This document shows positions 8,545-33,786 of a DNA stretch of 64,000 nucleotides, piece by piece (the first letter of the stretch is position 1; every line of letters begins with the position of its first letter). The notes beneath the pieces are model-generated. The model was given only the letters and a program-made list of their open reading frames with translations, did not search any database and was not told the DNA's origin. Both the position numbers and the translations under genes were made by a program. Origin of the DNA: an uncultured Gemmatimonadales bacterium (GTDB lineage: Bacteria > Gemmatimonadota > Gemmatimonadetes > Gemmatimonadales > Gemmatimonadaceae); the NCBI GenBank assembly GCA_963707505.1, contig CAVPQB010000006.1, positions 756,581-820,580 on the forward strand. Direction: 5' to 3'.

Positions 8545-9752
8545 CGCAGATGGGACGCGATGAGCGAGACAGTGGTTTCGGCAGCCGCGATAGTCTGTCT
8601 CAGCATTTCCGGTGCAATGACGAAATCGTCGACGTTTCCGTCACCGCACTGTCCGTTGGGATATGCGCCGAGGATCGAGAAGTAGCTCATGCCCGCCGAG
8701 TCGGCGGCGGTATAATAATACGGCTCGATATGCCCGGGCGGAGTGAGTTCTATGAGGACCGAGCCCGGATGACAGAACACGACATCGGTGAGCGCCGCTC
8801 CGTGCGGACCGATGATGATCTCCGCCTGCGGCAGGAGATCACGGATTGCGTCCGTGCCCGGAATGATCGTCTCGAATCCCGCCGCATCCAGGATCGGAGC
8901 GAGTGCCTCTTCATCGATCAGCGTACGTCTCGACCCTCGTCTGCTAAGAAAAAGACGCCGGCCCTGCTGCGGAACATGCGGCGATCGCGAGCGCCAGAAT
9001 TCGCCGACCCATGTTGGACTGTTGCATCGCAAGCCCGGAAAGGTAGGCGCGATCAGCTGCTCGCATTCCACAATTGAAAAGCTGCTCAGCGCAACCATCT
9101 TCTCCGGTGGGATTCCGCACAGCTGTACGGCAGATTTTCGTCCTTCGGATGACAGATCCGGAACGAGTACGTGCGACACATCGTCCCAGGTGTAGCCGGA
9201 TCGCTCGAACAAGGCGACTCGGGACAGCGCATCGAACATCATGTGACCGTAGTTCGCGGACCACTCCGTACACAGGTTGAGTGTCACGCCCGACAAACGC
9301 GCAGTCGACGCGAGGCTGTCGTGGAGATAGATCGGACATGACCCCACTCGGTATCCATACCAGCTGTGATCGGGAAGATATGTGTCATCCTCGGCGACGA
9401 TCCATCCTTGCGGACTGATCACGCGTGCATTCCGCAGTCGTGCAACGCCTGCCGCCGGCAGGACTGTCGCGACCAGCTCGAGCATCTGCGCAGCGGGATA
9501 GTTGACGCAACGCGGCGCTTGCCTCTCGGCGACGCCAGCCGGAACGACCTCACGCCATTCGGCGCCATGTCGCCGGCAGTATTCCGGAGTGTGAGACCAG
9601 TGCCGGGGCGGCCCGAAGGTTCGCGAGTCCAGAGGCAGCCACTTGCTGCGCTCCGGACTCGCGAACGTGCCAGCGAATCGGCGATAGGTTGCTCCGCCGA
9701 GCTTCCACAACGGGCGCGGAACCAGCGCGCGTAAACCGGGGTCAGAGTGCAC
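8541..9752 (-). CDS. Glycosyltransferase family 61 (DUF563-like); predicted start lies inside a TIR
   Basis: NYGHMMFD, RLFLSRRGSRR, IIGPHGAALTD, LIELTP; 4-bp overlap with the GT2 gene. Confidence 0.8.
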   Translation of the reverse strand: MHSDPGLRALVPRPLWKLGGATYRRFAGTFASPERSKWLPLDSRTFGPPRHWSHTPEYCRRHGAEWREVVPAGVAERQAPRCVNYPAAQMLELVATVLPAAGVARLRNARVISPQGWIVAEDDTYLPDHSWYGYRVGSCPIYLHDSLASTARLSGVTLNLCTEWSANYGHMMFDALSRVALFERSGYTWDDVSHVLVPDLSSEGRKSAVQLCGIPPEKMVALSSFSIVECEQLIAPTFPGLRCNSPTWVGEFWRSRSPHVPQQGRRLFLSRRGSRRTLIDEEALAPILDAAGFETIIPGTDAIRDLLPQAEIIIGPHGAALTDVVFCHPGSVLIELTPPGHIEPYYYTAADSAGMSYFSILGAYPNGQCGDGNVDDFVIAPEMLRQTIAAAETTVSLIASHLR

Positions 9753-10204
9753 TTCTCTGACTCCCGCGATCCTTGCGTGGCCCGCCGATCTTTGCGGGAC
9801 GCGCGCGGCGCCCTAGCGGCGGGCGAATCGCGGGATCCCTGGCACCGAGTGCATTGGCCCCATGACTCGACCAGCGATAATCCTTGCGCTCCGCCACGAT
9901 CCCAGGCGTGACGAGCAGATGAACATGGTTGGTCATGAGCACGTACGCATGCACGGCACAATGTTCCCGCATGGACAGTTCACGCAGAGCTTGCAGGTAA
10001 CGGAGATAGTCCGATTCACGAAAGAAGCACGGCCTGCGATCGTTGCCAGGTTGGATAACGTGCTGCGCGATGCCAGGAATGTCCAGGCGCGGCTGGCGTG
10101 CGATGGTGAAGCTCCTGTGAAGGGAGCCACACAATACTATGGGGCGGCGTCATGCCATTCAGTCGATTGCAACATCTGAAACCGGAATACCGCGCTCTGA
10201 CCCC
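9738..10204 (-). mobile_element. TIR-bounded element (family A) with internally deleted RAYT-like Y1 HUH transposase pseudogene
   Basis: Ends GGGGTCAGAG...CTCTGACCCC; encodes ARQPRLDIPGIAQHVIQPGNDRRPCFF...AYVLMTNHVHLLVTP (HUH) fused to DYRWSSH and a short C-terminus; ATC at 10102-10104 in place of ATG behind an AGGAG RBS; stop codon inside the TIR. Confidence 0.88.
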
Positions 10205-10270
10205 TATTCCCCCATTTTCCCGGCAAACCCTATATTCCAGAGTCTTTCCGACCCACAACCAGCAGGCGCC

Positions 10271-17484: not shown

Positions 17485-19986
17485 TCAGCCGCCGATCGGT
17501 GTTCCCGGCGGCAGCGGGATCACTCCCGTCGGACGCGGCGGCGCGATGCGGCGATCCAGCCAGTTCCGCACGTTGCGAACGACTTCCGCGTTCGCCGCGC
17601 GATCCTCCGTATCTGTCGTCTTCGCGGCCGACGAGGGTCGTTGCCAATCGATTCAAACGATCGTTGGCGACGGCCTGCACATCTGCCGTCGATTTCTGAT
17701 CGGCCGCAAGCGCGAACAGTGCGTCGACCACCGCGCGCCTCGCCTGGCGACGGACGCCGCGCTCGTACGCCGTCGTCGCTGTCGCGTTCGTGTAGACGCC
17801 GTCGATCATCTGCCCGATCACTTCGTCGGCCGACGGCGATGCAGCGTCGCGCGCATGAAACGACATCACGCGCTCGATGCGATCGGGCTGCAGAATTCCA
17901 TCAGCAACGTTGCCAGCCAGCGCGCGCGCGATGGCCAGCGGATCGTAGACGATCCCCGCCGGCGTCGTCGCGAAGCCCCAGCCGCCGCCGATATCCGTAG
18001 GGCGACGGCGGAATCATCTTCACTATGCGCTCGGGCACCGCGAGCTCGCGCGGCTGAATCGTCGCGATCAGCTCGCGCAGCGCTTCCCGCTGCTTCGCCG
18101 GCGCGATGACTGTCGCCGGTGTCTGTCCGTCGCCGCGCAACGCGAAGGTGTACTCCATGCCGCCGATCGCCTTCGTCGCCGCTTCGATCGCGTAGCGATG
18201 ATGCAGATAGACGGGCACGAAGCGCTCGTTGATCATCCACATCGGCTCGCCGGGCGCGATCACCGATTCGTTGAACTTGGAGATCAGCACGTCGCGCACC
18301 GCGCTCTCGCGCGCGAGCTCCTTCACCGCGTCGTCGCCGTTCAACCAGCGCGTCACCTCGGGGATCACACCCGCCGACGCGTCGCGATCGGTCAGAAAGC
18401 GCGCGCCGCCAGCGATCGCCTGACGCGCCAGCGCTTCCTGCCCCGCGCGCTCTGCTGCAGCGTTTGGATACTGCGTGTAGTCGAAGCGAATCGCCAGCGT
18501 GTCGTACGCGCCCGTGCCCGTTGCCCACGCGTGCGAAACGTCGAGCGTGCCGTTCGGCCTCAGCGTCACCAGCGGACCCGGATAGTCCATCACACTGGCG
18601 CGGCCGAACGCGTGCGAGATGTAGTTGTGCGCGAGGCCGAGCGTGTGGCCGATCTCGTGCGCGACGTGCTGGCGGCGGCGCGACATGGCGAACTCGGTGC
18701 CGTTGACGTTGGGATCGAGCGACGCCATCCAGTCAGCTGCCTTCTCCGTCCATCGCCGGCGTCATACCCGGCGAAGATGTTGTAGTCGGTGATCGAGCGA
18801 TACGTGTCCATCTTGAGCATCGCCTTGATGATCTCGCCCGTGCGCGGATCGACGAACGACTGACCCACGGAGAAGCCCGGATCGCTCCGGTGCACCCACT
18901 GGATGATCGAATAGCGTGCGTCCATCGGATCGACGCCGGCCGGGAGATCCTCGACGCGAAACGCGTTCTTGAATCCGGCCGCCTCGAACGTCTTTGTCCA
19001 CCACGACGCGCCCTGACGGAACGCGGTGCGATACGGCTCCGGAATGCCCGGATCGAGATAGTACACGATGGGCTTGACCGGCTCGGACATCGCGGCCGAC
19101 GGATCCTTCTTCTCGAGGCGCCAGCGATTGATCCAGCGCGTCTCCGGCTTCTCGGTGAACGGGCGCGAGAAATCGTGAACGTCACCGAGAAGATGCCGAC
19201 GCGCGGATCGAACGCGCGCGGCTTGTAGTTCGGAATCGGGCAGCTCGACGAACGAGAAGTGCTCGCGCAGCGTGAGCGCCTCGGCATCCGGCGTATGACG
19301 CGCGACTTCGCGGCCCGGTGCATCGCTCGCGAAAGTGAGCAGCGTCTCGATTTCGGTGTTCTTTGGAAACGCCTTGGTGTGCGGCAGGTAGATCGCGCTG
19401 CGATTGCGATCGAGCCGATACGTGCCCTGCTTCTGCCGCTGGATCGTCGAGCTGACATTCATCACATCCTGCAGCGCGAAAGTCCGTCGCGTCGACCAGC
19501 AGCCGCCCACCTTCCTCGGCGACGATCGGCATGCCGGCGAGCGTCGACGTGGCGAAGGACTCCTCGACCGCGTGCGCCTGGAGCGAGTCGGCCGTCGCCG
19601 CGATAACGTGTGTTCTGGCGGATGAGCAGCACGCGCGGGCCGAAACGCTCGAAGCGCACGATCGCCTCGTCGCCCGTCGTCCCGCGATCGAGCCCGAGCT
19701 CGTTCGATCCCAGGCCAGTGGCGAGCGTGGGCAGGTAGAGGAAATCCTGACCGAGACGCTGCACCTCGAGGAGAAGCTTGCCGGTGTGCTCGTCGTAGTA
19801 GAACGGGATGAAGCCGTCGTGGCGCTCCATGCCCGCGGTCTGCGAGGCGATGCTGCGCGCGGGCTGAGCGGCCGCGGGTTGGGCCGCGGGTTGCGCGGCC
19901 GTGCGCTGGGCTCGGAGTGCGATGGGGGCGGATACAAGGACGAAGGTGACGACGGAGGCCACGAGGGCGTAGCGGGCAACGCGCAT
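17485..19986 (-). pseudogene. Zinc-dependent metalloprotease (DUF5117/DUF4953-type) with several frameshifts (error or decay)
   Basis: Fragments in different frames: signal MRVARYALVAS, TKAFPKNTEIE, RWRLEKKDP..KPIVYY, DPRTGEI, HEIGHTLGLAHNY, SVMDYP, end PLPPGTPIGG*. Confidence 0.85.
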
Positions 19987-20199
19987 GGGCGATCGGGGGA
20001 GGGCGGAAGATTGAACGAAGACGCCAATGTGGCGCACAAGCGGGTCCGATGCAATGCGGCCTGCATCGGGGGCACTCCCGGAGACCGCTCGTCAGCATCG
20101 GCGTCCGTCAGGCCGCGTGCTCCGAATCGAGTCCGACGAAGCACAGATCGGCACGCATGGCTGCTGCACGAACCGATCGGGCATGGGGGTCAGGGCATG

Positions 20200-24846: not shown

Positions 24847-24924
24847 GGGGTGAGAGTGCACTTCTCCTGGTAAACGCGATCTGGTGGCGTCAGAAGCAAC
24901 GGGACGGAGTGGGGACGGACTCCG
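24847..24924. mobile_element. Family-A mini-element interrupted by a family-C TIR
   Basis: GGGGTGAGAGTGCACTTCTCCTGGTAAACGCGA... then GGGACGGAGT GGGGACGGACTCCG. Confidence 0.7.
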
Positions 24925-29312: not shown

Positions 29313-29359
29313 GGGGACGGAGTGGGGACGGAGTGGGGACGGAGTGGGGACGGACTCCG
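29313..29359. repeat. Family-C TIR with three tandem 11-bp units
   Basis: (GGGGACGGAGT)x3 + GGGGACGGACTCCG; same end as 24901-24924. Confidence 0.85.
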
Positions 29360-29423
29360 TTTCTGAAGCGTGTCGAGGTCCTTTCGCGTCAGGTGCCGGA
29401 ATGGAGAGGCGGGGTCAAGAGGC

Positions 29424-29591
29424 GGGGTCAGGTCTTGCCCCGTGCGCCGATCCCGGTCATTGCAGCTTTTCGCTACACCGCGCGGCGCGTCGACCGCACG
29501 ATCGGCGGGCGCTTCGGTATCAATTGATCGCGCGTTCGCCGAACGGTAGGCAACTCAGAGCGTCAGCGCGCACAGGGCAAGACCTGACCCC
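29424..29591 (+). mobile_element. Family-B MITE, 168 bp
   Basis: Full TIRs; 2 mismatches to the 30881 copy by manual alignment. Confidence 0.95.
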
Positions 29592-29623
29592 GTTGCCCTC
29601 GGCGTCAATTGGTATCGGGTATC

Positions 29624-29678
29624 GGGGTCAAGCCTTGCGCCGTGCGCCCAATTTCAGGCACGGCGCAAGTATGAATCC
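29624..29678. repeat. Family-B TIR-only hairpin, degenerate
   Basis: GGGGTCAAGCCTTGCGCCGTGC-12 nt-GCACGGCGCAAG (12-bp perfect stem), directly after the rhodanese stop. Confidence 0.75.
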
Positions 29679-29679
29679 T

Positions 29680-30027
29680 TCAACGCATCTCTCCCGACTC
29701 CGTCGGCAACTTCATCGCCGTCCACCCTGTGATCCCTGCGGACATCACACTCACATTGCTGTAACCCATCTTCTTCGCGCGAAGCGCGGCGTTAGGAGCC
29801 TTTCTGCAAAGAGGATTCGAGCAGTAGAAGACGATGCGGGTTTTGTCATCGGCGGGTAGATCACTGTTGCCGTAACCGAAAGGATCCAGATTCAGCGCAC
29901 CCGGAACATGTGCGTTGATCCAGCTCTGACGCGAATTGACGTCGACGATTACAGTTTGCTGGTGCTGCATCGTCTGGTGCAGATCGCCTGGCGATATACT
30001 CCTGAGCCCCATGAGTCTCGCCAACAT
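29680..30027 (-). CDS. Rhodanese-like domain protein
   Basis: IVDVN, AHVPGALN, IVFYC, GITGW. Confidence 0.88.
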   Translation of the reverse strand: MLARLMGLRSISPGDLHQTMQHQQTVIVDVNSRQSWINAHVPGALNLDPFGYGNSDLPADDKTRIVFYCSNPLCRKAPNAALRAKKMGYSNVSVMSAGITGWTAMKLPTESGEMR

Positions 30028-30060
30028 GTCAGTTGCTCCCGTTGTGTGGCATTGAATGCA

Positions 30061-30474
30061 TCACGAGCGCGGCCCTTTCGCTGCTACCAGCGCGATCCTG
30101 GTCGCGACGAGCATCACTGATACCCCGAGAACGCTCACTGCGAGTGCCGTAGCATACTGCATAGGTGCGATCATCCATACAATCGCGTACGCGACGCCGC
30201 CGAGCGCGAGTGTCCAACCCGTGAAGCGACGGATCGACTGCTCCACTATCGGATCACCGCACGCCCTCATGCGCGGCGTGATCGTCTTGGGTACGAGGTT
30301 GGCGTAGATGAGTACCACGCCGCCTGACAGGATGCCGAAGATTCGGAGCTCGAGATCGCGGCTCAGGTAGGACGGCGAAAGAAGCTGAAGCACTAGAGAA
30401 GCGAGAATCAGCAGACCTGCGATGATCAACCCGCGCTTGATGCCAGCGCGCGACGATTGCGATTGAACGGTCAT
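30061..30474 (-). CDS. Small four-TM membrane protein (SdpI-like context)
   Basis: Start MTVQSQ overlaps the ArsR stop; YANLVPK...RRFTGWTLALGG. Confidence 0.7.
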   Translation of the reverse strand: MTVQSQSSRAGIKRGLIIAGLLILASLVLQLLSPSYLSRDLELRIFGILSGGVVLIYANLVPKTITPRMRACGDPIVEQSIRRFTGWTLALGGVAYAIVWMIAPMQYATALAVSVLGVSVMLVATRIALVAAKGPRS

Positions 30475-30779
30475 GTTACTTCCTCCTGTGTGAGGGGTGT
30501 GCCGTCTTCGCTGCTTCTGATCTCGAGGCCAAATGCCTGCGCGAATCCCAGCAGCGCTTCTTCCAGCACGGACATCTTCAGCCGGTAGATGATCGTCCGG
30601 CCGTGCCGTTCGGCCTGAATCAGATCGGCCGCGGCCAGCACTGCGAAGTGGGCCGACATCGTGGACTTGGTGACATCGAAGTGCTCCGCGATCTCGCCCG
30701 CACTCATAGGCCCCTTCTGGAGAAGTTGAAGAACCTGTCTCCTGGTCGGATCGGATAGTGCCCTGAATACGTTGCCCAT
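30471..30779 (-). CDS. ArsR/SmtB family repressor, SdpR-like
   Basis: VFRALSDPTRRQVLQLL..GPMSAGEIAEHF...TMSAHFAVL..ADLI. Confidence 0.92.
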   Translation of the reverse strand: MGNVFRALSDPTRRQVLQLLQKGPMSAGEIAEHFDVTKSTMSAHFAVLAAADLIQAERHGRTIIYRLKMSVLEEALLGFAQAFGLEIRSSEDGTPLTQEEVT

Positions 30780-30780
30780 C

Positions 30781-30804
30781 TTCGATATTTAGCCAATCAT
30801 CGAA
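30781..30804. promoter_or_regulatory. Candidate ArsR operator
   Basis: TTCGAT-N12-ATCGAA inverted repeat in an AT-rich patch immediately upstream of the ArsR start. Confidence 0.55.
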
Positions 30805-30880
30805 ATATAGGCAAGAGGAGAGTTTTTGGGTCACTGACGCGCTGCCCGACGCGGGCTGCAGGGGCGGGGTCTGCAGGGGC

Positions 30881-31048
30881 GGGGTCAGGTCTTGCCCCGT
30901 GCGCCGATCCCGGTCATTGCAGCTTTTCGCTACACCGCGCGCCGCGTCGACCGCACGATCGGCGGGCGCTCCGGTATCAATTGATCGCGCGTTCGCCGAA
31001 CGGTAGGCAACTCAGAGCGTCAGCGCGCACAGGGCAAGACCTGACCCC
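30881..31048 (+). mobile_element. Family-B MITE, 168 bp
   Basis: Direct repeat of 29424-29591, sharing the downstream 10 bp GTTGCCCTCG. Confidence 0.95.
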
Positions 31049-31189
31049 GTTGCCCTCGATAGCGAATGGGAAGCGGTGGGCCGCGGCGCACACGCGGTGA
31101 TCGATGAAGCGAAAGCCACCAGGAACTGCGCGTCTTCGGTCTCGACCAGCAGTCCTGAGGCGCGACACTGAAATGGCGCGGCTGGTGCG

Positions 31190-31249
31190 GCCTTACAATT
31201 CATTCAAGCCCAAGCCGTTGCGCGACTCGGCTTGGTTCAGGCGTCAGGT
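31190..31249 (+). other. Degenerate 60-bp integron attC site
   Basis: GCCTTACAATTCATTCAAGCCCAAGCCGTTGCGCGACTCGGCTTGGTTCAGGCGTCAGGT follows the short Xanthomonadales-type attC pattern; AAC changed to TAC and GTT to GTC. Confidence 0.8.
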
Positions 31250-31285
31250 GACAACAGGCTTCGATCTCTATCAGGGGTGGACAAC

Positions 31286-31798
31286 ATGCACCGGCTATCA
31301 ATCGTCGCTCTCGCACTCCTCTGCTCGCCCGCAGCGTTGTTCGCGCAAGACCCGAAGCCCGACTCGCTATTTCCACGCCTCGTGGGAAATTGGGTACTGC
31401 GCGGTACCATCGCGCGACAGCAGACCATCCATGATGTGACGTTCGAGTGGCTGCTTGGCCGCGAGTACGTTCAGATGCACGAAGTATCTCGCGAGCGTGC
31501 GCCGAATGGCACGCCCGCCTACGAGGCCGTCGTACTGTTCGGACGTGACCCCAAGACCGGCGCTTATGCGTGCGTGTGGATGGACAACACCGCCGCGGCG
31601 GCATTTCCATCCGAGGGCACCGGCCGTGGGACCATCGCAGGCGATTCCATTTCGTTCCTTTTCAACTACACCGCTACGACGAGCTTTCATACGACATTCC
31701 TCTACGACTCGTCGACAGATTCCTGGCGATGGCACATGGACAACGACAGTTCCGGCGTCCGCAGGCCATTCGCACGAGTCACGCTTACCCGGCGGTAG
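31286..31798 (+). CDS. Secreted DUF1579-like beta-rich protein; integron cassette gene
   Basis: Signal peptide; LVGNWVLRG...FEWLLGREY...YACVWMDNT; flanked by attC-like sites. Confidence 0.75.
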   Translation: MHRLSIVALALLCSPAALFAQDPKPDSLFPRLVGNWVLRGTIARQQTIHDVTFEWLLGREYVQMHEVSRERAPNGTPAYEAVVLFGRDPKTGAYACVWMDNTAAAAFPSEGTGRGTIAGDSISFLFNYTATTSFHTTFLYDSSTDSWRWHMDNDSSGVRRPFARVTLTRR

Positions 31799-31813
31799 AC
31801 GCCGGCCGCTGCC

Positions 31814-31918
31814 ACCTAACGAACGTTGACGCAGTTGACTGGCTGCGGTAGCGTGCGGCGCTCTCGGGCATCGCGCCGTTCGCCGTCCACGACCGCTAGC
31901 AACCGCTGGACTTGGGGG
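31814..31918 (+). other. Degenerate attC site, right end lost
   Basis: RYYYAAC box ACCTAAC 15 bp after the stop; GCCACCTAAC is complementary to the cassette-start GTCAGGTGAC at 8/10; imperfect internal hairpin. Confidence 0.6.
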
Positions 31919-31926
31919 TGACTTGG

Positions 31927-32078
31927 GGGGTCGACCAGTGCCGATCTCGCGCACAAGCCCGAGGGCGACCAGGGCCGCGAGTCCGGCGCCGCGGCACGCA
32001 GCGAACATCCAGTACTCGTTACGCCGCGCCAGATGATAAATGCCATTTGCTGGTTTCACTAAAGTCCACTCTGACCCC
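31927..32078. mobile_element. Family-A derivative: intact right TIR, degenerate left TIR
   Basis: AAAGTCCACTCTGACCCC ending 32078; GGGGTC at 31927 preceded by duplicated GACTTGGGGG. Left boundary uncertain. Confidence 0.55.
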
Positions 32079-32086
32079 GTATTCCC

Positions 32087-33559
32087 CTACCGCGCGCCGC
32101 GCTCCGGCCGGCCACCAGCATTCCACGCCGGCTTGAAGTCGCTCGTCGCGAGCCAACGCAGTGGATCGATCAAACTCTGAATCGCGGACGTCATGAACGG
32201 AATGTTGAGACTCGAAAACTCATCATCCGGCTGATGATAGGTCGGTGGTGTTCCCCAACCTGCTGCGGTATGCGCCACTACTCCCTTCAGTGCGAGCGCA
32301 TAGTTGTCCGAGCGCTCGAAGAAGTGCTCCTCCGGGTACGGATCCGGTCCGAGCAACGCACCGTGTGCCTTGAGCGCGGGTCCGAGATTCGATCGCTCCC
32401 ATCCCGTGAACAACAGCGTACCCTTCGATGTCTTGGGATCCTGATTGCCGATCATCTCGAATTCGACATTCGCAACGAGACTTGTCAGCGGTACCGGCGG
32501 ATGCTCACCGAAATATGTCGAGCCGAGCTCGCCAATTTCCTCGCTACCGTAACAGACGAACAGAATGCTCCGTCGGAGCCTCGGGCCTGCTGCGAGTGCA
32601 TGCGCAAGCTCCATCACCGCCGTCGTTCCGGCAGCGTCGTCGTTCGCTCCGTTGTAAATCGAGTCGCCCTTTACCGGTCGTCCGATTCCCAGATGGTCCA
32701 GATGCGCGGAAAGCAGAATCGTTCCGGCCGACGGATCGGTACCCTGCAGATATCCAATCGCGTTGTACGTCATGCGCGGTTCAGCCTGCGGCACGACCTG
32801 CACCGCGAGAGTCGCGGGCGCGCCATCGTTTTCACTTGCGAGCCGAGCGGCTGCAGCAGCAGTGAGCACGACGACATTTCGTGCAACTGCTGGTTGCGGG
32901 CTGTCCTTGAGCCGAACGCCTACGCGAGTGCGTCCGCCGATTTGGGTAGACATCGCGTCCGTCGCCGGACTCGCCGGTACCAGCACGACAGCTGCACCAG
33001 CGCGAATCAGTTGCGTCGCCAAGCCCATCGCTTTCAGTGGATCGCCGCCAACGAGAACGACCGCGCCCCTGGCGTGCGCCTGCGCCAGATTCTCGGGCAG
33101 AACTTTCACCAACGTTGCGGTTACGGGAGCGCCGGAAGCGATGAGAAGATGAAAATCATCGCCTTCCTTCAACGTCACGTTGCCGACTGTGAGCGTTGCA
33201 TTACCCGATAAAGTCGGCGATACGACTTCAGCGCTCTGTATGTATCCCGTCATTCCCGGCGCGGTCTTCAGCCCATAGGCCATGAACTCGGAAGCAACAT
33301 AGGTTGCCGTAATCTGTTCATCGCGAGTCGCGCTTCCGCGACCGTGCATCGCATCGCTCGACAGAAAACGCTCGTGCGCCGCCACCCACTCCGGTCGCAC
33401 AACCCACGTCGATTTCTTTTGCGCTGCGCTGCGTGAACTCGGCGCCGCGGCAGTCTTCTGCGCCACCGCCTGCGTGAAAGGCAACAGCGCGCTCACCGAC
33501 AACGTGACCAGCAGCCGCGCGAACGACGAACGATGCCCTGCTATTTGACGCTCCTTCAT
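32087..33559 (-). CDS. M28 family metallopeptidase, secreted
   Basis: LSAHLDHLG, NGANDDAAG, GSEEIG, RSDN, YHQPDD. Confidence 0.92.
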   Translation of the reverse strand: MKERQIAGHRSSFARLLVTLSVSALLPFTQAVAQKTAAAPSSRSAAQKKSTWVVRPEWVAAHERFLSSDAMHGRGSATRDEQITATYVASEFMAYGLKTAPGMTGYIQSAEVVSPTLSGNATLTVGNVTLKEGDDFHLLIASGAPVTATLVKVLPENLAQAHARGAVVLVGGDPLKAMGLATQLIRAGAAVVLVPASPATDAMSTQIGGRTRVGVRLKDSPQPAVARNVVVLTAAAAARLASENDGAPATLAVQVVPQAEPRMTYNAIGYLQGTDPSAGTILLSAHLDHLGIGRPVKGDSIYNGANDDAAGTTAVMELAHALAAGPRLRRSILFVCYGSEEIGELGSTYFGEHPPVPLTSLVANVEFEMIGNQDPKTSKGTLLFTGWERSNLGPALKAHGALLGPDPYPEEHFFERSDNYALALKGVVAHTAAGWGTPPTYHQPDDEFSSLNIPFMTSAIQSLIDPLRWLATSDFKPAWNAGGRPERGAR

Positions 33560-33786
33560 TATCCTGACTCCGATTGCGTTTGATACCGATCGATAATTCC
33601 ATGTCCGCTCCATATTCCAGTCGAGCGACGTTCTGACAGCTATATAGTACCATTGCAGCGACCGACCGGCTGGAATCGCGCCAGGTCGAGTCTGCAATCT
33701 CTCGTCGCGGTCGGCGTGCGCGACGCCAATCGGTTCGGGACGGCGCGTTCATCCCGTGCTGCGGCGATGGTGTGCACGGGGGTGTT

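What the first reader, a model, noticed from the sequence alone, without database searches (positions are those of the whole stretch)
31059..31926. Fossil integron cassette segment trapped between TIR elements
Seen: a 60-bp attC-like site with both core triplets mutated, then a single gene, then GCCACCTAAC, which is complementary at 8/10 to the cassette-start GTCAGGTGAC. Known: this complementarity is the hallmark of an integrated cassette. The segment is bounded by a family-B MITE on the left and a family-A end on the right, and I found no integrase in the window. Inference: TIR elements took a piece of an integron array or invaded one, linking two gene-capture systems.
Basis: partly seen in the sequence, partly recalled or inferred. 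Interest (0 to 1): 0.72.

Follow-up and report, generated by a model that had tools for sequence, protein, structure and literature searches.

The report
Decayed integron array tail with MITEs
This is the worn-out last two gene cassettes of an integron that close relatives still carry at the same chromosomal spot; miniature transposons likely landed in it afterwards rather than carrying it there, so it is an ordinary decayed gene-capture array.

Summary
The cassette is real. The left 60-bp site (31190-31249) matches class 1 cassette attC sites. The 170-aa gene sits in integron arrays in relatives, and the right site is only the left half of an attC.

Three same-genus genomes carry the intact YCII-like gene next to the same M28 peptidase, and all three keep attI in the same interval. 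One has a full integron integrase there. So this is the tail of a resident integron whose platform is gone from this interval.

The inverted repeats are TIRtron (Y1/HUH transposase) MITEs. The family-B copy is absent from the three relatives. The family-A half-end lies at 32026-32078, not 31926, and two relatives without this cassette already have it. TIR ends are not enriched at attC sites or near intI. 'Invaded' is supported; 'captured' is not.

With my attC model the left site scores only 15.8 bits (E 0.31) and the right site does not score. The scan has noted TIRtron MITEs in variable regions before, once inside an integron array.

The parts
17488..19995 (-). Left synteny anchor: Met-zincin/DUF5117 gene. 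In G016 the integron integrase follows it directly.
   Evidence: 91% nt matches in G015, G016, G018; Pfam on the G015 orthologue; intI at L160:6390-7376
29424..29591 (.). Sister family-B MITE. With the 30881 copy it forms a 184-bp direct repeat around the rhodanese/membrane/ArsR module.
30881..31048 (.). Family-B TIRtron-derived MITE (24-bp TIRs starting GGGGTCAG), an internal deletion derivative of the 1-kb Y1 transposase element at G000:C6:581999-583002. It replaces the first ~44 nt and the upstream region of the YCII-like gene.
   Evidence: absent in front of the intact gene in G015, G016, G018
31054..31158 (+). Remnant of a 113-aa YCII-like cassette gene: 5' end lost, 193-nt internal deletion at 31117/31118, stop codon at 31156-31158
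   Evidence: 87-91% nt matches to two separate parts of the gene in G016; deletion size; weak Pfam YCII, E 0.002-0.009, below cut-off
31190..31249 (+). Full-length but degenerate 60-bp class-1-type attC of the YCII-like cassette. Its R' half is the start of the next cassette.
   Evidence: the same attC type follows the intact gene in G255 (L177); 15.8 bits, E 0.31 with model R2
31286..31798 (+). Intact cassette gene, 170 aa: hydrophobic N-terminus (likely a signal peptide) plus a predicted calycin/nitrobindin-like beta-barrel; weak DUF1579
   Evidence: dN/dS 0.05-0.16 against 8 homologues
31814..31863 (+). Left half (R'', L'', start of loop) of a ~91-100-bp attC; right arm missing
   Evidence: 78% over 58 nt to an intact attC in G585 (E 5.8e-6; that attC scores 62.7 bits); alignment with the attC of homologous cassettes
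31864..32025 (.). Unrelated filler, including a short tandem duplication at 31909-31931; not a recognisable family-A end
32026..32078 (-). Family-A half element (one TIR, 32058-32078, pointing left), cut at the same place in G015 and G018
32087..33697 (-). Right synteny anchor: M28 peptidase

Best explanation
The segment holds two integron cassettes (a deleted YCII-like gene with its 60-bp attC, then an intact 170-aa gene with half an attC) at a site where three relatives keep attI and one keeps intI, so it is likely the decayed tail of a resident integron that TIRtron MITEs later invaded. Shown: the two cassettes, the orthology of the interval, the integron platform in relatives, and the absence of the B MITE and presence of the A half-end in relatives. 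Inferred: IntI inserted the cassettes at attI and pushed them to the distal end. The platform was then lost from this interval in G000 and replaced by about 11 kb of other accessory DNA. Deletions and point changes disabled both attC sites. A family-B MITE, likely mobilised in trans by the Y1/HUH transposase at C6:582 kb, landed in or beside the YCII-like gene. The cassettes are probably immobile now, because attC2 has no right arm and no intact IntI is assembled.
For: Orthology: both anchors and the YCII-like gene are in the same order and orientation in G015, G016 and G018. Platform: G016 has IntI in the interval (TIGR02249 414.8 bits, cut-off 265) with attI and attC sites. G015 has the IntI C-terminus (aa 273-328) plus attI, G018 has attI with intI deleted, and G014 has a worn post-intI segment there (by eye). 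The YCII-like gene is a full cassette with the same short attC in G255. The 170-aa gene is the first cassette behind intI and attI in L015 (347.6 bits), with the core site at the same -43 offset as in the window. Among homologue loci, 27 of 104 have GTYAGRY upstream and 17 of 107 have RYCTRAC downstream (shuffle means 3.6% and 2.1%). 26 of 29 distinct heuristic attC sites in those loci lie on the gene's strand. Timing: the B MITE is absent from 3 of 3 relatives and the A half-end is present in 2 of 3. No targeting of attC or intI.
Against: The relatives have no attC and no 170-aa cassette behind the YCII-like gene; a family-A dimer follows it directly. So it is not shown that the second cassette was in the ancestral array. 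Neither window site is significant with the covariance model. G000's intI 5' remnant (C6:234 kb) and an attI with an array (C2:177.7-182.3 kb) lie elsewhere, so integron pieces do move in this genus by an unknown route. TIR ends are dense in this interval in all four genomes (12, 5, 5 and 2). G000 is 83% complete, so an intact intI may be unassembled.
Confidence: 0.82

Rival explanations
1. TIRtron ends relocated the integron, or this piece of it, as an IMU-like unit. Family-A ends at both borders of the Met-zincin to M28 interval would have carried the platform and array in.
For: In G016 a degenerate family-A-like end sits at the junction just before the intI piece, which drags about 40 bp of the gene it follows elsewhere. 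A leftward A end closes the interval on the right. The intI genes whose flanks could be placed lie at different sites in different genomes of the genus. In L009, L054 and L055 (one lineage) an A end lies about 9 bp before the homologue's start codon.
Against: G020 has an intact A end at the same left junction followed by a different gene, with no intI piece in the 330 bp shown, so the end is a resident of a hot spot. There is 1 weak TIR hit in 35 intI loci, and it is inside the gene. Homologue loci hold 13 TIR hits in 801,514 bases, no denser than G000's average. The C2 array has no TIR.
Confidence: 0.1
2. The 170-aa cassette was inserted here on its own by an IntI acting in trans (attC x attC, or off-target attG-type insertion giving a SALIN), behind a YCII cassette that was already stranded.
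For: The relatives lack this cassette at the site. G015 and G016 carry the gene at another locus. Off-target cassette insertion is published (10.1101/2022.09.11.507474, passages).
Against: The junction is a precise attC R' joint, not a chromosomal attG site. attC2 resembles an attC in the orthologous G016 array (L160:11714-11804, by eye). This changes only the timing, not the nature of the segment.
Confidence: 0.07
3. The sites are chance look-alikes and the gene is not a cassette.
For: No folding signal. The covariance scores are not significant. About three quarters of homologue loci show no core motif.
Against: BLAST E 3e-9 to the fosE attC, the same attC behind the same gene in G255, and a homologue as first cassette of an integron.
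Confidence: 0.01

Closest known systems
CALIN / SALIN elements, attC clusters or single sites lacking an integrase (PMC8618304, passages; 10.1101/2022.09.11.507474, passages)
   Same: attC-bounded cassettes with no intI nearby. Loss of intI and rearrangement are listed routes to CALINs.
   Different: Only one full-length, degenerate attC and one half site remain, so it is a worn remnant that a covariance search would probably miss. Here the origin can be traced to an orthologous complete integron.
TIRtrons / TIRYT and their TIR repeat families (Di Nocera 2013, PMC3733652, passages; Y1 subclass 2.1 of Quentin 2018, PMC6006769, abstract and passages)
   Same: Y1/HUH transposase between terminal inverted repeats starting GGGGWSAS, with dispersed dimers and miniature copies. 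The family-B parent has a weak C-terminal HTH.
   Different: The passages read do not describe them in integron arrays ('integron' occurs 0 times in PMC6006769). Subclass was not tested with a tree.
MITE-flanked class 1 integrons and the integron mobilization unit, IMU (review PMC3575428, passages)
   Same: A MITE next to integron material.
   Different: Those have two copies of one MITE around the integron, with target duplications or shown transposition. Here the ends are from two families, differ in age, and the array was already at the site.

Membership tests
Integron gene cassette | Core site at the start, complementary to the inverse core after the gene | tested here: met
   8 of 10 complementary; same -43 offset as the intact cassette in L015
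Integron gene cassette | Complete attC (R'', L'', L', R') able to fold | tested here: not met
   attC2 lacks its right arm. attC1 is full length but degenerate: 15.8 bits against 42.9 for the fosE attC; no folding signal
Integron gene cassette | Homologues occur in integron arrays | tested here: met
CALIN/SALIN | No integron integrase nearby | tested here: met
   0 matches over the TIGR02249 cut-off in G000, 83% complete; only a 5' remnant 553 kb away
CALIN/SALIN | attC sites called by IntegronFinder's covariance model | not testable with these tools
   That model is not available. My model R2 finds four other attC sites in G000 but gives E 0.31 for attC1 and nothing for attC2
TIRtron/TIRYT | Y1 HUH transposase flanked by TIRs | tested here: met
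   C6:581999-583002, Y1_Tnp 45.8 bits; family-A parent in G015 L159:16256-17071, 56.3 bits
TIRtron/TIRYT | TIR motif GGGGWSAS | tested here: met
   both families begin GGGGTCAG
TIRtron/TIRYT (Y1 subclass 2.1) | C-terminal HTH extension and placement in the subclass 2.1 clade | tested here: inconclusive
   HTH_28 20.9 and HTH_23 20.0 bits, both below cut-off; no tree built
MITE-mobilised integron (IMU type) | Two copies of the same MITE bracketing the unit | tested here: not met
   family B on the left, one family-A half-end on the right
MITE-mobilised integron (IMU type) | Unit absent from the orthologous site in relatives (empty site) | tested here: not met
   the YCII-like gene and attI are at this site in 3 of 3 syntenic relatives
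MITE-mobilised integron (IMU type) | Transposition with transposase in trans | not testable with these tools
   needs a bench assay

The most novel reading that the evidence does not exclude
TIRtron (Y1/HUH) ends relocate integron platforms and array pieces inside Gemmatimonadota chromosomes, which would explain why intI-attI sits at a different site in each genome of this genus that could be placed, and why G000's intI remnant, attI array and array tail lie in three places. That would be the first cargo-moving role shown for TIRYT transposases.
Probability: 0.1. Interest if true: 0.55.

Novelty: new member of a known kind. Interest (0 to 1): 0.2.

Why it matters
As it stands, it is a well-traced example of how a chromosomal integron decays into an integrase-less remnant, with four relatives showing other stages at one site. 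That helps with the question of where CALINs and SALINs come from, but it is no new system. It would matter more if TIRYT transposases proved able to move integron pieces, since only 2 listed papers in the held library mention TIRYT or TIRtron, and the passages read leave their activity on TIRs as a future test.

Tried and rejected
1. Covariance model R1 (26 long attC sites, RNAalifold structure) found neither window site, but it also missed the genome's intact C2 sites, so it is uninformative. Model R2 (32 sites; the three found by similarity to the window site were left out) passed the positive controls.

2. Strict stem heuristics and arm weight matrices over the genome were too noisy. The window's left arms ranked 44 and 195 of 478.

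3. 'TIR elements target attC': rejected. 1 of 65 TIR-end flanks has CTAAC or GTTAG, against 1.4% of 20,000 random 75-mers.

4. 'Integrons are TIR-bounded in the family': rejected on 35 intI loci (the 30 best of the family search plus 5 from the genus).

5. The G-run at 31921-31932 as a family-A end: not found at <=2 mismatches.

6. No sigma-70 promoter or terminator match in 30780-32100.

7. The protein Atlas gave no answer for the cassette protein. No NCBIfam family matched it.

8. Literature searches. No listed title or abstract start described TIRtron-mediated integron capture. The library lacks most subscription papers, and I opened no supplements.

Full report
Setting. The window is G000:C6:756581-820580, in a 3.66-Mb, 83%-complete genome. 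Homologues of the gene in the finding come almost entirely from records titled Gemmatimonadaceae or Gemmatimonadales, so the host is inferred to be a Gemmatimonadota bacterium. No sequence in G000 reaches the integron-integrase cut-off.

Left site. 31190-31249 aligns end to end with the attC sites of the class 1 cassettes fosE (84.7% over 59 nt, E 3e-9) and catB8 (E 6e-6). 1,832 plasmid records match, 1,537 over at least 80% of the query. It does not fold better than shuffles. A covariance model built from 32 independent attC sites (R2) finds four intact sites elsewhere in G000 and scores the fosE site 42.9 bits. It aligns over its full length to exactly 31190-31249 but with only 15.8 bits (E 0.31 in 89 kb); one other window stretch scores higher. 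So it is a real but degenerate attC.

The gene. 31286-31798 encodes 170 aa with 1,062 homologues, a weak DUF1579 match below cut-off and a predicted beta-barrel (pLDDT 85; best folds OssO and nitrobindin, TM 0.59-0.65). dN/dS against 8 homologues is 0.05-0.16. Searches gave 125 homologue loci, 109 distinct by flank. Of those with enough flank, 21 of 104 have GTTRRRY and 27 of 104 GTYAGRY within 90 nt upstream, and 14 of 107 have RYYYAAC and 17 of 107 RYCTRAC within 60 nt downstream. Shuffle means were 5.9, 3.6, 3.0 and 2.1% (computed with the window included). Most loci therefore show no cassette mark, but the excess is clear. 26 of 29 distinct heuristic attC sites in these loci are on the gene's strand. 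In L015 the homologue is the first cassette behind an integrase (347.6 bits) and an attI-like site, with the core at the same -43 offset as in the window. The 8 of 10 complementarity is correct. The GTC start is shared by 6 of 104 loci, and L064 and L084 carry a compensating CCTGAC. It may thus be an inherited variant; single changes at core positions 2 or 3 are tolerated by IntI1 (PMC2811028, abstract only).

Right site. The first 58 nt match the left half of an intact attC in G585 (78%, E 5.8e-6). After 31863 the sequence is unrelated, and R2 gives no hit. It is a half site.

The repeats. Family B derives from a 1,004-bp element at C6:581999-583002 that encodes a Y1/HUH transposase with a weak C-terminal HTH. 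Family A has a Y1 remnant at window 9738-10205 and a 236-aa Y1 gene between A ends in G015. Both start GGGGTCAG, fitting the GGGGWSAS motif of TIRtrons (PMC3733652, passages; PMC6006769, abstract and passages). 22 of 71 TIR-end hits in G000 fall in one 50-kb bin that includes this locus.

The decisive comparison. Searching 60 relatives gave the orthologous interval, between the Met-zincin gene and the M28 peptidase, in three same-genus genomes. G016 has a complete integrase directly after the Met-zincin gene (414.8 bits), then attI, cassettes, and a 113-aa YCII-like gene next to the peptidase. G015 keeps the IntI C-terminus and attI, and G018 keeps attI with intI deleted. G014 shows a worn post-intI segment at the same junction (by eye). 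The window's 31054-31158 is that YCII-like gene with its first 44 nt missing and 193 nt deleted. In G255 the same gene is a complete cassette followed by the same short attC type (L177), so the 60-bp site belongs to it. Of 401 phylum genomes, 5 had a close copy of this gene, and only G255 showed that attC behind it.

Order of events. The B MITE is missing in front of the intact gene in all three relatives, so it came later. The A half element at 32026-32078 is present and cut at the same place in G015 and G018, which lack the 170-aa cassette there, so it is older and is not a border of this cassette. In all three relatives an A dimer follows the YCII-like stop codon instead of the attC, which would be an independent invasion. 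Whether the 170-aa cassette was in the ancestral array, or came later in G000, is open.

Tests of a general link. 1 of 65 TIR-end flanks in G000 has CTAAC or GTTAG within 75 nt, against 1.4% background. 35 intI loci give one 2-mismatch hit, inside a gene. The homologue loci give 13 hits in 801,514 bases, about the G000 average, though three loci of one lineage have an A end about 9 bp before the start codon. The intact array on C2 has no TIR. Integrons are common in the family (158 of 301 genomes; 4 of 22 over cut-off in the genus), so overlap with MITEs in variable regions needs no special mechanism.

What remains odd. G000's intI 5' remnant is at C6:234 kb behind a 133-aa gene, whose 3' end also precedes the platform piece in G016 and G018. 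An attI with an array is on C2, at a site where the flanking match in G015, G016 and G005 stops before attI. So platforms have moved in this genus. G016 has a degenerate A-like end at the left junction, but G020 has an intact one there followed by a different gene. TIR-mediated relocation is not excluded, and I give it about 10%.

Comparison. The segment works like a CALIN/SALIN remnant (PMC8618304 and 10.1101/2022.09.11.507474, passages). It fails the tests for a MITE-mobilised integron (PMC3575428, passages). Earlier notes of this scan describe TIRtron MITEs in variable regions of other genomes, one inside an integron array; they were seen after my identification and were not checked. Verdict: a real feature, a new member of known kinds, interest 0.2.

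Noticed in passing
window 29418-31058: A 184-bp, 98% identical direct repeat (B MITE plus about 10 bp of right flank and a few bases of left flank) brackets a 1.27-kb rhodanese / membrane protein / ArsR module. It looks like a composite unit or an integration by recombination at a MITE.
   Followed up: no
G000:C2:177700-182260 (L239): attI plus a cassette array with at least three scoring attC sites and no intI; the last attC is split by an IS3-like element (by eye). No TIR ends.
   Followed up: partly
G000:C6:233684-234261 (L222): Internally deleted 5' remnant of intI behind a 133-aa gene; the same upstream piece precedes the platform in G016 and G018 at another locus.
   Followed up: partly
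L184-L213, L168-L172: An attI-like site lies downstream of intI on the same strand in 11 of 35 family integrons and upstream on the opposite strand in 0 of 35, so these arrays run in the same direction as intI.
   Followed up: partly
L064, L084 (also L017, L026, L063, L123): Cassettes with a non-canonical GTC core; two have the compensating GAC inverse core.
   Followed up: partly
L180 (G003:C2) against G000:C6:583069-585903: G003's integron lies beside the orthologue of the DNA that flanks the full family-B TIRtron in G000; two elements at one hot spot.
   Followed up: no
window 24901-24924 and 29314-29359; six further sites in G000: A third repeat family with 11-bp tandem units (GGGACGGAGTG) leading into a conserved end; similar short tandem duplications lie outside several A and B TIRs.
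   Followed up: no
L009, L054, L055: A family-A end lies about 9 bp before the start codon of the 85-86% identical homologue, in place of the cassette's 5' region.
   Followed up: partly
G000:C6:306-403 (L240): An intact attC (52.2 bits) at the very start of the window's contig.
   Followed up: no
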